Assembly (NCBI RefSeq): GCF_003704095.1
Contig: NW_020847187.1
Location: 310,001-374,000 of the forward strand
Source: Pocillopora damicornis
Taxonomy: Eukaryota
Direction: 5' to 3'
Length of the DNA stretch: 64,000 bases
Below, piece by piece: positions 1-12,000 of this stretch. Each line of letters opens with the position of its first letter. Position 1 is the stretch's first letter. The position numbers are program-made.

Positions 1-3000
1 AATATGACATGATTAGTAGGAATGTATGCAGATGTAAAGCTTTGTGAGAGTTTCCGAAAAGTCAGATCACTGTTTCACTTAGACAGGAAACTTTTAAAAT
101 CTATGAAGCCTAACAATAGGTAAATAGAATTTAAAAGATAACCTATCTTTTTCATTGTTTTGTTCAGTTTTTGCATTATGTATTCTGAGGCTGATCACTA
201 TGGCTACACACCAATAAAACAGTAAAGACTCTGAATTTCTTCAATTTCTTCAATTGCAATACATTTGACCCTTACACTTTCAGGGTAAAATTGACCTCAA
301 TATCAATATTGTCACTTTTTTCAAATTTTCAACAAAAAGTTGAACTTTTCCTGCTAAGAGTCTGAGTACTTTAAGCACAAGACAGGTGCACTACACAAGC
401 TACTAAAGGCTTGTTTCAACCCAAACAGTGATTGTTTTGATGAGGAGATTACAGCATAAGATTAGGAGCTGCTTTCAAGCATACTCCTTGGTCCTGGTAT
501 TAATTTATTGCTTCCTATGTAAATCAAGAAAAGATGATTCTACAGCAATTTACCATGTCATAACAAAGAAACCCTCACAACCGATGAAATTGTAACTTTA
601 CCGCAAAATTAATTCCTTGGTGTATAATATACACAGAAGCTGTAAGAAAGGGCAATTTACATGATGAAATATTTAAATCACGACAGAATGCTTGTATGCT
701 CGTGAGCGACTGATTAAATTTCTTTTAGAAACGGAAAAAAACGTCTTTCGTGAGATGAAACAAACAGACTTGCCTTCTAGTATAAGGCATGCGCATAAAT
801 GCTATTCTGAAAAAGGATGTTAATAAAATAGTGAACTTCATATCGTAATCTTTGTCTTTTGTGCGCTACTTGTTATTTAGCAATCTGAAAAAAAACAAAA
901 TCCTTGACTCCAAAATGTTTACACTCCAACAGGGAACTAAAGCTTATTTCTATCCTGCATATCTTTACGAAAAGTTGCCTCGTTTCTTTCGCACGTTTCC
1001 CTTAAGACCTCGTCTTTATTTTGGTGCGTAGGCGATCTCTGTATTCAAAGCCTAGTTAGCTTATATTTAACATGTTTCAACCATTATATGTAAATATCGT
1101 TCTGTAAGCAAACCGCTACCAAATAATTCGAGTTTGATAAAAATTCTCGCATGGAGCTTCCGAATGGCGAGACTACAAGTATCAAGGCATTAATAGAAAT
1201 ATACAAAACTAAACAGCGGTTTGTTCGCCATAAAAGCACTTGCCGAAGCAATAAACAATCTTGTGTCGGTACAAATCGATCGATCTAAAATAAGCGGCTA
1301 GCCAGAGCCCGGAAATATTCAGTTAACAGGTTGTTTCGTCAGATCAGCTTTTAAAAGAAAAACGAACATCGCTTTTATCCAAAATCTCAAGCTTGACATT
1401 CTGATAAAACACGACCCGAACTGAACAACCTTCTTCTGAACGATATCTGGTAAAGCTGGGTATAGCTTTACAAAAATAAAAATCAAACCAGCAATCATTG
1501 CTACTTTAATCCGGGCCCAAAATGCTGTAAACTTCAGATCACGGAGAAAGAGATAAATTGAACAGAAGCGTGCTAGGCTCGTGGACGCCCAAACATCAAC
1601 TGGATCTGTGACCATGTCAATATCAGAGAATGCTCGCTACTCGAAAAGTCATGAAGCACAATTAAGATAAATAAGTATCCTTTTCAGCGCGTTTTTACAT
1701 GTTAGAATTAAAGTAAACGTAACTTCAAAAATAAATCGGCCTTAAATGTTCGATCACGGTATAGCGTATATGAAAAAAAAAAAAAGGAAAGAAAGACTCC
1801 TGTTCGATGTTGCAATTTGCCAAATATTAAAACTCAACCAAGCGTGATTCGATCGACATTGTGTATCTTAAGCTCTCGCCGAATGCGGTTTGTTGTCGAT
1901 TTGAAGTGTACAATAAAAACAACAAAGAAAAGATCACAGGAAATGCACAAGAAGTTCATGAAAAGAAGCGCAATCGAGGCTGAGGAAAATTCATGCAATC
2001 AAACGGGTATTATGTGTGCTTGAGCCGAACGACGAAATTAAATTCACGATCGGCCACTTTAACCGAAGGTGTCACTTTTCAAGAACCAAAGAACTACCGA
2101 TAGCCTACACGCACAAACGGTCTATAATTCAAAGCCGACCATCTGAGATCTAACATCCAGCGAACCTCCAGCAACAACGATCGAAAGGAAGATAGATCGT
2201 ATTGCTGACTGAGACAATCACCCCTTCTGTGAGGCGTAATTTTCTTCATATTAGTGTCAGAAGTTCAGGCGCACATTGAAAATTCGTTTTTTCCAGCTAT
2301 CTTGCGTTGGCGTTCCGCGATGGTTTTCAATGACCGCAAATATTGACAACAGGCGGCGGAAAAAAAGTAGCAATCGTCTACAGCCGCACGTATTTTGCGA
2401 TAAAAGGGTTACCAATAACTTTTCGATGACTTTAAAGATCAGTAAAGCTACGAGCGCGCACAATAATCGACACGCTTACTGACAGAGAAATATTCTAAGC
2501 CATCGATCGAGTCCCCGCATATAATAAGGAAACATAAGCACAACAGAATAGAAATCGTCCTTGCCTGGAACTTTTGTTGTGTCTCTTAGGTGGCTGAGAG
2601 GCATCGGTGACCGTTTTGTAGCCTTGTGGCTCAGCTGAAATTCCTTGGCGTTGATTTCTAGTACGAGTTGCTACGGCCGGTTGCAGAACCGAACGATATT
2701 TGTCTAACTCGCTCTCGAGTCGACGGATCAACTCATTTCTCCTTTTCAATTCCTGCTCCAAGGCCAAGATGCGGCTGTCCTTCATTTTCATTTCGGTGTT
2801 CTTCTCTTGGAGGGCCTGCTGCAGCTCTCGCAGACTGCCCATTTTCGCTGTGGTTGCCGCAGTACCCCGCCGAAAACACAAACACCCTGCCTTCTTTTTA
2901 CTCTCAGCTCGACCGCAATGCATCACTCCGCGCGCTTTATCTAATCGCCAATGGAATACTGGGAATTCATTCACCGATATCCTGAGGGTAGTTGAAAAGA

Positions 3001-9000: not shown

Positions 9001-12000
9001 AACTCAGCGTCTAAATATAGAAGAGATGTTTTATTCATTTCTCCACACAGTACCCGTAGCTTGATTAGAGTTATTTTTATAGATCAAGGTGCTTAATGTT
9101 TTTTCACTAGTGACGTAAATTTGCCTACCTCTCAAAAAATGCTTGGGAAAAGAAAAGCTTGTATCTATATAAAATGACCTTTTGAAAGGCCAGTAGAGAA
9201 ATATACGGTCACCAGTCAGGAGAATTTACTATCAGATCTTATATATCAGATATAGTCGAGTATCCTGATCGTGCCCATGCCCCTCTCGCTCCTCATATGT
9301 TTCTAGTTCTTATCGATGCCCGAAACCACACGGCCTAAGGCCTTGTTACGGGCGTTTTCAATAATCGTTCCAAAAAATTAATATGCCTTGAACATCAAAT
9401 CTGATAATTAGGACTCCATGAATCACTAATTTTCTTACCAAACTTTCCGCACATTTGTTCTTTCTTTATAAGAGCGTCAACATGCATTTTGCTGTACGGA
9501 ATCAAGATTCTACCCATTTTTCAATGACGTTTCATGACAACAGCCACTCATCCATTCGTTATCATCTTAAATGTATTGATGGCTTTTTCGGTGAAAAATT
9601 CAAATTACATGTAATTAATTTTCGCAGGTGTAACTTTAAAAATATATATCTCACTATAATTTTTTGGGCGAACCTTCACTTGTTTCATGATAAATGAAAA
9701 ACTTATTTTCGCGTCAGTTCATAAGGTTTCCATGCAAATGGTAAATCTCATTTTGCTTTATTACTTTTAGTGCACAATATCACCTCACCACAAGAACCAA
9801 TATCACTGGCATGACGCTACATTTGTGCGTCGACATGATCTGGTCTGTTCAGTTTGCTAACGATATACTTACGTTCTCCTTCTCTGTCTCTCTCCTGCTT
9901 GGGATTATTCATTGGCGGTGTCTTAGGCCGAGGCGTGTTGTTGTTTGAGTCGCTCCTGAAGAAAGGGGAATTATTTCTAGAATTCCTTGCAACCAGCTTG
10001 AACGCTGGCGAACCAATGTGATCCTGCATCTATGATTCGGTCTGAAATAACAAATGAGTGAGTAAGTACGACAGCGTCATTCGGCGGAACTAAATTAACT
10101 CACCTGGTGGTCGCTTCACAATTCAACCAATAGGACTGTGGACTTTTTCATTTCCTTTAATCAGAGGTTTAACAGAGTATGACAGTTAACATCTTAAACG
10201 TACTGAGAACGCATTATTGGTAGCCTGGTTGTCGAAACGGTAATGATGTGGAAAATGTTTCCCGCATTTGATTGATATTTCTGTCGTGAACTAGGGTCAC
10301 AGGTGCGTTTATAACGAAACTCATCGCTTCGATTGTTATGATGAAACAAGCACACCTCTTTCATCTGCTGCTTTTCTTTTCAAATTAAAAATTTCAGACG
10401 GTGAACGAGACAGTTCATTGAAAAGATGACTATTGGAAGTAATGCGTTTAAAACTTGATAGGCACTAGACGGTCGTGTGACGATTTGCACGACTCAACTT
10501 GCTTCCAATATAACACCTCCCTCAGACCGCCATTAAAACAGATACACACATACACACACGAGTGGACGGATAGATGAACAACAAATCAATAGGAATAAAG
10601 ACATAAAGTAATTCAGTAATCGATATACAGCTACAGTCGAGCCTCTAGTAAACGACCTTCCAAAATATCGACTTTTGGTGGTCGCTTACGGGAGGTTAAA
10701 AGCAATTGATAATCATCTCTGAAAGTGGTCGCTTTTGAGAGGTAGTCGCTTTCGACGGGTTCCAGCGATAGCGATTTGGCTTGAAAACTTTTGGTATTTT
10801 TGAAAAGTGGTCGCTTATGATAGGTGGTAGCTTTTAATACGAGAGGGGGTGGCAAGGGGAGGTTCGACTGTAGTAGTAAAAACTAAAATGAATCAGTTTT
10901 GATCTATGAATAGGATAAGAAAGTGACAAAGTGATCTTTGAAGGTTACGCGGAGTGCCATTGTGCCTGACAATTACGCTTAAGGCTCGCGATGTTTGTCA
11001 AATACATTGACCATTGAGGGACAACGGTTTGCATGAGTAAATTAATGCTTCATTTCCGGACTTCTATTTATAGAGTTTTGTCAATACCAATTAGCAATAA
11101 ACAAAAAACTTTTAACGTTAATTGAAAAAGATGTTTTCCTAAAGAGTCCCAAAAGCGAAGTCTCACGAAAAGATTGTAAAGCTGTCGTTGCAGTATTTGG
11201 TATTGAAAACTTTTTCACTTACGGGAACTCCATTCTGGGACATTGTGACAAACTGATATACAGGAGAGGTCTCAGGCGCAAGTGAATGAATGAACCGTAC
11301 TGGGATCAATTATTTAGAACTGAAACGCTCTTTCCAAGAGCAATGGAAAAGAGGAAAATGTTAAAAAAACAACCGTTAGCGTGGAAGCAGGGTAAGGTAT
11401 GTTACCCTCTCATTGAATTCTACAACAGTGTCCCACCAAATCTGGCGCAGAAGCCCAAACTGCTCTCCGAACATTTTGTAACTAAGATCATTTTATAAAT
11501 TAATTATGCCCTAATCCTCTCTTTTAAGCAATCAAACAAAAATACATACATTGGAGACAAGGTAAAAAGTCCTACTTGAAATATCCGTGATTGCAGGGAA
11601 GACAGCGGACAGAGCGTCAGAGGTCCTTGAGAAATGAAAAGTATCGGATGTGCCTTATTGGCGCATGAACTTGAAAAGCGGGTCAAGTACGTTTGATATT
11701 CGCCCGCAAAAAAGGAATAATAAAGTTGTCAGCATTCGTGCCAAGTTAAATCTCTCATGTCACGAACTGACTGCAATTTTTTTTTGACACTGTTTCTCGA
11801 ACTCAAAAGAAAAGAGGAAACGACAAATTCATGAATGTTTCCTCGATATCAGATCTCCTAAATAGACTTATTTAGGGTCTATGCAAAAAGCAAATAAATA
11901 CAAGAATTGGAAATTCTTATCTCAAGACTTGCTACATGTGAGCAACGATTGTATGACATAGCAATAATACCGGGCAATCGCCAGCTTGGGAGCCGGGGTC

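What the first reader, a model, noticed from the sequence alone, without database searches (positions are those of the whole stretch)
2565..10029. Vertebrate-like alpha/beta alternative first exons of PKG-I in a probable cnidarian
Seen: two separate coiled-coil + pseudosubstrate modules, each ending in a phase-2 donor about 20 residues after SAEP, so they look mutually exclusive onto one shared downstream exon. The distal one is alpha-like (RAQGVSAEP) and the proximal one beta-like (MGSLRELQ...DKYRSV). Established: mammalian PRKG1 makes Ialpha and Ibeta from alternative first exons in this order. Inference: the isoform switch is either very ancient or convergent.
Basis: partly seen in the sequence, partly recalled or inferred. 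Interest (0 to 1): 0.68.

Follow-up and report, generated by a model that had tools for sequence, protein, structure and literature searches.

The report
Two alternative N-terminal exons of PKG
The start of one cGMP-dependent protein kinase gene carries two separate start modules, each with a dimerising zipper and a self-inhibiting motif; they are probably used one at a time as in vertebrates, but the shared next exon lies outside the window, so this is not proven.

Summary
On the minus strand there are two coiled-coil plus pseudosubstrate modules. The distal one is A1 10029-9873 plus A2 8877-8442. The proximal one is B 2842-2565. They give the only two [GAS][IVL]S[AG]E[PSA] matches in six frames of the 64 kb. 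Both end in a phase-2 donor, 18 and 20 codons after SAEP.

B is clearly Ibeta-like: it matches PDB 3nmd at E 1.5e-11, against 0.11 for the Ialpha zipper 1zxa.

Corrections:
- B's donor is GC, not GT.
- A2 matches no PKG entry in Pfam or PDB. Its only detectable relative is B, so "alpha-like" rests on four residues.
- A pyrimidine-rich acceptor at 2981, in frame and open, means A2-to-B inclusion is not excluded.
- No cNMP-binding or kinase exon lies in the window, so the shared exon cannot be seen.

The taxon and the mammalian exon order stayed unverified.

Most likely reading: mutually exclusive N-terminal modules of one PKG-I gene (confidence about 0.58). This is a new member of a known kind, of moderate interest.

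The parts
10042..10103 (-). Possible 62-nt intron in the 5' UTR of the distal transcript (CCACCAG|GTGAGT ... TTCAG|ACCG). It implies a further non-coding exon ending at 10104.
   Evidence: Read from the sequence; splice letters verified. Inference only; no transcript data.
9873..10029 (-). Exon A1, coding part: ATG at 10029 with an in-frame TAG immediately upstream. It gives 52 codons plus 1 base of a low-complexity, probably disordered N-terminus. Donor AAC|GTAAGT, phase 1.
   Evidence: Codon log-likelihood 0.16 per codon, above the 90th percentile (0.062) of 490 null ORF segments. No Pfam family.
8442..8877 (-). Exon A2, the distal module: acceptor acag|GA fits A1 in frame; donor AAG|GTATGT, phase 2.
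8549..8848 (-). Long leucine/isoleucine zipper of A2 (residues 10-109, about 15 heptads).
   Evidence: Heptad column LFLLILIIELLKHLL. A two-copy model is a parallel, in-register dimer with contacts at residues 10-109: score 0.51, best of 3 controls 0.00.
8498..8530 (-). Pseudosubstrate (autoinhibitory) motif of A2, RARAQGVSAEP.
2565..2842 (-). Exon B, the proximal module: ATG at 2842 in context gcgaaaATGG; 92 codons plus 2 bases; phase-2 exit.
   Evidence: PDB 3nmd at E 1.5e-11. Pfam PF16808 at E 2e-6, 27.7 bits, below the curated cut-off of 35.
2684..2833 (-). Leucine/isoleucine zipper of B (8 heptads), Ibeta-like.
   Evidence: Heptad column LLMILILL. Alignment to 3nmd over residues 2-55; 31 of 54 positions identical by my count of the alignment printed.
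2627..2659 (-). Pseudosubstrate motif of B, RNQRQGISAEP.
2559..2564 (-). Non-canonical GC donor of exon B (CAG|GCAAGG).
   Evidence: Flank score 7.4, the highest of the three donors scored.
2981..2985 (-). Candidate acceptor tcag|G upstream of B's ATG. 16 of the 20 bases before it are pyrimidines. It is in frame with a phase-2 donor and open through to 2565. The resulting exon 2981-2565 would be 417 nt.
   Evidence: Only 115 of 7481 AG sites in the window (1.5%) have a tract this pyrimidine-rich.
701..3400 (.). Block of high CpG observed/expected (1.3-1.64, against a window mean of 0.76) around and downstream of exon B. It may mark an unmethylated promoter region.

Best explanation
Window 2565-10104, minus strand, is the 5' end of one type-I cGMP-dependent protein kinase gene with two alternative N-terminal coding modules.

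The modules:
- The distal module (A1 + A2) gives a roughly 50-residue disordered head, a 15-heptad zipper and the pseudosubstrate RARAQGVSAEP.
- The proximal module (B) gives an 8-heptad Ibeta-type zipper and the pseudosubstrate RNQRQGISAEP.

How each module works:
- The zipper makes a parallel homodimer and serves as a docking surface.
- The pseudosubstrate sits in the catalytic cleft until cGMP binds.
- This mechanism is established for mammalian PKG I and is summarised in PMC10299703 (passages).

How the two are joined to the rest of the gene:
- Both modules leave in phase 2, on the bases AG, 18 and 20 codons after SAEP.
- Either can therefore be joined to the same phase-2 acceptor of the first common exon, which lies beyond coordinate 1.
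- The choice is made either by a second promoter in the CpG-rich block around B or by splice choice.
- A2 looks like a paralogue of B with a lengthened zipper, so the pair probably arose by exon duplication.

Shown: the modules, their phases and their homology. Inferred: the shared exon, mutual exclusivity, the promoter, and the use of the GC donor.
For: - The SAEP-type motif occurs 2 times in six frames of the 64 kb, both on this strand.
- B matches the PKG Ibeta zipper 3nmd at E 1.5e-11, against 0.11 for the Ialpha zipper 1zxa. It matches Pfam PKcGMP_CC at E 2e-6.
- A2 is homologous to B: 31% identity over 83 residues including the pseudosubstrate, E 4e-7. Its N-terminal half aligns to B residues 2-44 at E 6e-6. 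The Smith-Waterman score is 93 against a maximum of 64 in 2000 shuffles; shuffling destroys heptads, so this control is lenient.
- Both modules show clean heptads.
- Two copies of A2 residues 1-112 model as a parallel in-register dimer. The score is 0.51 and the best of 3 controls is 0.00. The runs agree in at least 97% of contacts, and the partner pLDDT is at least 86.
- Calibration of that mark: on microbes it was reached by 21 of 30 proteins solved as pairs of one chain and by 0 of 23 solved as single chains. On eukaryotes it was reached by 17 of 29 (animals 7 of 16), but by only 1 of the 7 with no older solved relative, and by 0 of 30 single chains. The pass may therefore reflect likeness to solved coiled coils.
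- Both exits are phase 2; A1 to A2 is frame-compatible.
- No cNMP_binding or Pkinase hit appears in 207 ORFs of at least 62 aa (both strands, whole window), nor in 85 of the 87 minus-strand ORFs of 28-61 aa in 1..8442. The two left out overlap exon B in other frames.
- No cyclic-nucleotide-binding or kinase signature motif appears in any frame. The distal module therefore has nowhere to go except past B.
- B's ATG has a strong context, gcgaaaATGG.
- The block with the highest CpG o/e in the window surrounds B.
Against: - The common exon is not in the window, so the key junctions cannot be seen.
- B's donor is GC, not GT.
- B has a good acceptor candidate at 2981 that is in frame and open. By my estimate the chance of one such site among the 13 AG sites there is about 0.07. 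B could therefore be an internal exon.
- An in-frame ATG at 2923 and a 9-codon uORF at 2970 lie upstream of B's ATG.
- A2 has no match to any PKG entry in Pfam or PDB.
- A1 rests only on an ORF, its splice letters and its phase.
- The codon-usage test on the 46 codons upstream of B is inconclusive: -0.05 per codon, against exons at 0.04-0.16 and a null of -0.10 with sd 0.13.
- There are no transcript data and no homologues from other species.
Confidence: 0.58

Rival explanations
1. Both modules are spliced into one mRNA: A1 - A2 - an extended exon B (2981-2565, 417 nt, phase 2 in and out) - common exons. The resulting PKG has two zippers and two pseudosubstrates. Alternatively, B is a cassette exon that is included or skipped.
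For: - The acceptor candidate at 2981 has 16 of 20 pyrimidines, a level reached by only 115 of 7481 AG sites in the window.
- It is in frame with A2's phase-2 donor.
- It is one of only 2 of the 34 AG candidates that read open through to 2565.
Against: - The 46 extra codons have null-like codon usage.
- The alignment of B to the Ibeta zipper starts at residue 2, directly after the ATG. The ATG context is strong.
- No PKG with two autoinhibitory motifs is known to me (recalled; no call tested this).
- The acceptor could equally serve a 5' UTR intron of the B transcript.
Confidence: 0.13
2. The modules belong to two different genes. A1-A2 starts a separate gene, either a tandem PKG paralogue whose other exons lie beyond B or a small coiled-coil protein with a pseudosubstrate. 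B starts the PKG-I gene proper.
For: - Downstream exons are not visible in the window.
- A2 has no detectable PKG match outside its likeness to B.
Against: - No cNMP-binding or kinase exon, and no Pfam-recognisable exon of any kind, lies between 8442 and 2981 on the minus strand.
- The strand, the exit phase, the last two bases (AG) and the spacing after SAEP are all the same.
- A gene that leaps over another gene's first exon to reach its own exons would be unusual.
Confidence: 0.1
3. Only one module is in use. The other is a decaying duplicate: either B is stranded by its GC donor, or A2 is left without a working start.
For: - B has a GC donor.
- A2 lacks its own ATG before residue 62.
- No expression data exist.
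Against: - Both reading frames are intact, with unbroken heptads.
- B keeps 31 of 54 positions identical with a mammalian Ibeta zipper (my count), which speaks for purifying selection.
- The flanks of the GC donor are close to the consensus (score 7.4). Working GC-AG introns typically look like this (recalled knowledge).
Confidence: 0.08

Closest known systems
Vertebrate PRKG1 isoforms PKG Ialpha and Ibeta
   Same: - One gene gives two alternative N-termini, each with a leucine/isoleucine zipper and an autoinhibitory sequence, joined to identical cGMP-binding and catalytic parts. The unique parts are 89 and 104 residues (PMC10299703, passages).
- Here the unique parts end 18 and 20 codons after SAEP. 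By my recollection this is about where the mammalian isoforms converge.
- Exon B is recognisably Ibeta-type.
   Different: - The distal module is coded by two exons and is about 197 residues long, with a zipper twice the usual length.
- It shows no detectable likeness to the Ialpha zipper.
- B uses a GC donor.
- Whether the two are orthologous to alpha and beta, and whether the exon order is the same, was not tested.
Drosophila melanogaster foraging (for), the PKG-I orthologue
   Same: One gene gives several N-termini coded by alternative 5' exons, with identical cGMP-binding and kinase parts: eight putative isoforms (PMC10299703, abstract and section 2.1).
   Different: In the fly only the exon-4 group (P1, P1alpha, P3) carries a zipper and an autoinhibitory sequence; the exon-7 group (P2, P4) lacks both. 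Here both alternatives carry both elements, as in vertebrates.
PKG II (PRKG2)
   Same: A long N-terminal coiled coil precedes a pseudosubstrate. As I recall, that pseudosubstrate also has V before SAEP, like A2.
   Different: - PKG II is a separate gene. Metazoans are said to have two PKG types (PMC12608923, abstract and passages).
- A2 did not hit any PKG II chain in the PDB at E<=10.
- A1 does not start with the myristoylation-type start that I recall for PKG II.
Hydra PRKG1
   Same: A cnidarian PKG-I gene is known and has been tied pharmacologically to sleep (PMC7541080, abstract and passages).
   Different: That paper does not mention isoforms; the word occurs 0 times. Whether the window comes from a cnidarian at all is unverified.

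Membership tests
PKG type I N-terminal regulatory module | Leucine/isoleucine heptad zipper at the N-terminus that dimerises in parallel | tested here: met
   Heptad columns LLMILILL (B) and LFLLILIIELLKHLL (A2). A two-copy model of A2 is parallel and in register: score 0.51, best of 3 controls 0.00 (a model only). B's dimer was not modelled.
PKG type I N-terminal regulatory module | Pseudosubstrate: basic residues followed by [GA][IV]SAEP, after the zipper (motif definition recalled) | tested here: met
   RNQRQGISAEP and RARAQGVSAEP give the only 2 pattern matches in six frames of the 64 kb.
PKG type I N-terminal regulatory module | Match to Pfam PKcGMP_CC (PF16808) at its curated cut-off of 35 bits | tested here: not met
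   B scores 27.7 bits at E 2e-6, below the cut-off. A2 gives no match among its 19 rows at E<=10.
PKG (whole protein) | The module is followed in the same transcript by two cNMP-binding domains and a Ser/Thr kinase domain | not testable with these tools
   None are in the window. The gene runs off the window below coordinate 1, and no collection holding this genome was open.
PKG Ibeta-type N-terminus | The zipper is significantly closer to Ibeta than to Ialpha | tested here: met
   For B, 3nmd scores E 1.5e-11; 1zxa scores 0.11 and 4r4l scores 1.6.
PKG Ialpha-type N-terminus | The zipper is detectably similar to the Ialpha zipper (1zxa, 4r4l) | tested here: not met
   For A2, 0 of 29 hits are PKG chains at E<=10. 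For its two halves, 0 of 4 and 0 of 5 are. Only the four residues before VSAEP resemble Ialpha, and that likeness is recalled.
Mutually exclusive alternative first exons | Each alternative has its own start codon, and both have a donor of the same phase | tested here: met
   ATGs at 10029 and 2842; both exits are phase 2.
Mutually exclusive alternative first exons | The proximal exon has no usable acceptor, so the distal transcript must skip it | tested here: inconclusive
   An in-frame, open acceptor candidate with 16 of 20 pyrimidines lies at 2981. Whether it is used is unknown.
Mutually exclusive alternative first exons | Both donors join one common acceptor in real transcripts | not testable with these tools
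   There are no transcript data, and the common exon is outside the window.

The most novel reading that the evidence does not exclude
If the window is from a cnidarian, three things were already present in the cnidarian-bilaterian ancestor: the vertebrate design of two alternative zipper-plus-pseudosubstrate modules on one PKG-I gene, an Ibeta-type zipper, and the phase-2 intron about 20 codons after SAEP. The design was then simplified in flies. The Ialpha/Ibeta switch would then be one of the oldest conserved alternative-N-terminus systems in animal signalling.
Probability: 0.3. Interest if true: 0.6.

Novelty: new member of a known kind. Interest (0 to 1): 0.42.

Why it matters
- In mammals the two PKG-I N-termini set cGMP sensitivity, partner choice and localisation (PMC10299703, passages).
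- Finding the same two-module layout, with a plainly Ibeta-type zipper, in a distant animal would date this isoform switch.
- It would also give a simple organism in which to ask what the two N-termini are for.
- None of my ten literature searches listed a paper on alternative PKG first exons in cnidarians. One search listed 1 irrelevant paper. One search found 0. One search found 49 and listed 12. One search listed 25, of which only 1 mentions PKG.
- Automatic genome annotations may already list such isoforms. I could not check them.

Tried and rejected
- ESM Atlas on A2: only generic coiled-coil clusters, recognition 1663, below the stated level. No lead.
- Rfam at gathering thresholds over the whole window: 0 matches, so no RNA marker for the taxon.
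- Codon-usage log-likelihood trained on the two long ORFs: too weak to say whether the 46 codons upstream of B's ATG are coding.
- TATA and CCAAT letters upstream of both starts: present (TATAAG at 3093, ATTGG at 2952 and 10131, TATAAA at 10313), but such short words are expected by chance. I gave them no weight.
- Mammalian exon order: passages in PMC2617781, PMC8196906 and PMC12592724 say nothing on it. PMC2964902 and the 2025 J Exp Biol paper on two PKG genes (reference 31 of PMC12608923) are not held.
- A PKG II origin of A2: considered, and not supported by any PDB hit.
- Genome contigs holds only bacteria and archaea and was not used.
The tables and alignments of PMC10299703 that define the fly zipper and autoinhibitory motifs were not seen.
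- Structure prediction and fold search were not used, because fold matches of a bare coiled coil say little.
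Full report
**What is there.**

The feature lies on the minus strand. I read three coding exons.
- Exon A1 starts at the ATG at 10029, directly after an in-frame TAG. It runs 52 codons plus one base to the donor AAC|GTAAGT after 9873, phase 1.
- Exon A2 runs from the acceptor acag|GA at 8877 to the donor AAG|GTATGT after 8442, phase 2. The A1 phase fits the A2 frame.
- A2 has no ATG before residue 62, so it needs A1 or another upstream start.
- Exon B starts at the ATG at 2842 (context gcgaaaATGG) and ends after 2565 at CAG|GCAAGG, phase 2.
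- A possible 62-nt 5' UTR intron (10103-10042) lies just upstream of A1.

**Is it real?**

- The pattern [GAS][IVL]S[AG]E[PSA] occurs exactly twice in the six-frame translation of all 64 kb: RARAQGVSAEP in A2 and RNQRQGISAEP in B.
- Both motifs are preceded by clean heptad repeats. One position reads LLMILILL in B (8 heptads) and LFLLILIIELLKHLL in A2 (15 heptads).
- B matches the solved PKG Ibeta zipper 3nmd at E 1.5e-11 over residues 2-55. By my count of the printed alignment, 31 of 54 positions are identical. The Ialpha zippers score only 0.11 (1zxa) and 1.6 to 2.1 (4r4l, 4r4m).
- Pfam PKcGMP_CC matches B at E 2e-6, but at 27.7 bits it is below the curated 35.
- A2 matches no PKG entry. 0 of 29 PDB hits at E<=10 are PKG. 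0 of 4 and 0 of 5 hits for its C- and N-terminal halves are PKG. PF16808 is not among its 19 Pfam rows.
- A2 is nevertheless homologous to B. BLASTP gives 31% identity over 83 residues through the end of the zipper, the linker, the pseudosubstrate and the tail, at E 4e-7.
- The N-terminal half of A2 aligns without gaps to B residues 2-44 at E 6e-6. The two halves of A2 resemble each other weakly, at E 3e-4.
- So A2 looks like a B-type module with a lengthened, perhaps internally repeated, zipper.
- The shuffle control (0 of 2000 shuffles reach the observed score) is lenient, because shuffling destroys heptads.
- Two copies of A2 residues 1-112 were modelled as a parallel, in-register dimer with contacts from residue 10 to 109. 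The score is 0.51 and the best of 3 controls is 0.00. The runs agree in at least 97% of contacts, and pLDDT is at least 86.
- The calibration of that mark is as follows. On microbes it was reached by 21 of 30 proteins solved as pairs of one chain and by 0 of 23 solved as single chains. On eukaryotes it was reached by 17 of 29, but by only 1 of the 7 with no older solved relative, and by 0 of 30 single chains.
- This is a model, and coiled coils may pass by likeness to solved ones.

**Searches were exon by exon.**

The joined A1+A2 model, and any A2+B model, was not searched or folded.

**Splice logic.**

- Both modules exit in phase 2 on the bases AG, 18 (A2) and 20 (B) full codons after SAEP. 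This is what one expects if either can be joined to one common phase-2 acceptor.
- B's donor is GC, not GT. None of the 9 GT dinucleotides between 2700 and 2497 has a usable context by my ad hoc score, while the flanks of the GC site score 7.4, the best of the three donors. From recalled knowledge, GC-AG introns are rare, have near-consensus flanks, and are often linked to alternative splicing.
- Against strict first-exon status for B, I examined 34 AG sites upstream of its ATG. Six are in frame for a phase-2 entry, and two of those read open to the donor.
- One of the two, at 2981, has 16 of 20 pyrimidines before it. Only 115 of 7481 AG sites in the window (1.5%) reach that level.
- With 13 AG sites in the open stretch, I estimate a chance of about 0.07 for one such site in the right phase.
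- The acceptor could serve a 5' UTR intron of a B transcript. It could instead allow A2 to be joined to an extended B (417 nt) in frame, giving one mRNA with both modules.
- The 46 extra codons have null-like codon usage, but the test is weak.
- An in-frame ATG at 2923 and a 9-codon uORF at 2970 lie between that acceptor and B's ATG.

**Surroundings.**

- No cNMP-binding or kinase domain is found anywhere in the window. I scanned 207 ORFs of at least 62 aa on both strands, and 85 of the 87 minus-strand ORFs of 28-61 aa in 1..8442. The two left out overlap B in other frames.
- No signature motif of these domains occurs in any frame.
- The rest of the gene therefore lies beyond coordinate 1, and the central claim (one shared exon) cannot be seen here.
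- The same result argues against a complete tandem gene between the two modules. The distal module has nowhere to go except past B.
- The block with the highest CpG observed/expected in the window (1.3-1.64, against a mean of 0.76) spans 701-3400 around B. A weaker rise lies at 10301-11000 upstream of A1. This is compatible with two promoters but is only suggestive.

**Comparison with what is known.**

- Mammalian prkg1 gives Ialpha and Ibeta, which differ only in N-termini of 89 and 104 residues. Each N-terminus has a zipper and an autoinhibitory sequence, and the two isoforms differ in cGMP affinity, partners and localisation (PMC10299703, passages).
- Drosophila for gives eight putative isoforms with different N-termini. 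Only the exon-4 group has a zipper and an autoinhibitory sequence (same paper, section 2.1).
- Metazoans are said to have two PKG types (PMC12608923, abstract and passages).
- Hydra PRKG1 is known, but the paper does not mention isoforms (PMC7541080, passages).
- The window thus shows the vertebrate-style layout, with both alternatives carrying both elements. The proximal exon is Ibeta-type.
- The 'alpha' label of the distal exon rests on the four residues before VSAEP, compared with a motif I only recall.
I leave it open.
- That the organism is a cnidarian was confirmed by no call. Rfam gave no marker.

**Verdict.**

- The most likely explanation is one PKG-I gene with two mutually exclusive N-terminal modules (about 0.58).
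- The rivals are tandem inclusion (0.13), separate genes (0.10) and one dead module (0.08).
- It is a new member of a known kind.
- Homologue searches and supplements were closed, so the age of the switch (ancient or convergent) stays undecided. My only hint is that A2's closest detectable relative is B itself. This fits a duplication but does not date it.

Noticed in passing
window 24743-26449 (-): An uninterrupted 568-aa ORF from its first ATG, of the ERG4/ERG24 sterol reductase family (Pfam E 3e-107). The best solved relatives are delta(14)-sterol reductases: 4quv at E 6.6e-91 and 9l5r at E 8.8e-64. The N-terminus carries about six tandem QNGHVPDL-like units. An intronless gene stands out beside an intron-rich one.
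   Followed up: partly
window 42442-43218 (-): A 259-aa open frame strongly similar to phosphonoacetaldehyde hydrolase (2iof at E 1.9e-52, covering chain residues 5-205 of 267; Pfam HAD at E 7e-8). I know this enzyme mainly from bacteria. The last 60 or so residues are not in this frame, and an N run (42405-42414) lies just beyond its end. The N run was not filled. It could be a phosphonate-catabolism gene of the animal, a transferred gene or a truncated copy.
   Followed up: partly
window 701-3400: The largest block of high CpG observed/expected in the window (up to 1.64, against a mean of 0.76). It reaches from upstream of exon B far into the intron downstream of it.
   Followed up: partly
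window 22836-22854, 34660-34759, 42405-42414: Three runs of N, 129 bases in all. They were left as they are.
   Followed up: no
window 55839-56123 (-): A weak match of a 95-aa frame to the sperm-tail PG-rich repeat (SHIPPO-rpt): E 0.0033, 18.9 bits, below the cut-off of 20. It may be an exon of another gene.
   Followed up: no
window 8901-8946: A short A-rich tandem repeat (period 9 or 18) lies immediately upstream of the A2 acceptor, in the A1-A2 intron. That acceptor itself has only 8 of 20 pyrimidines before it.
   Followed up: no
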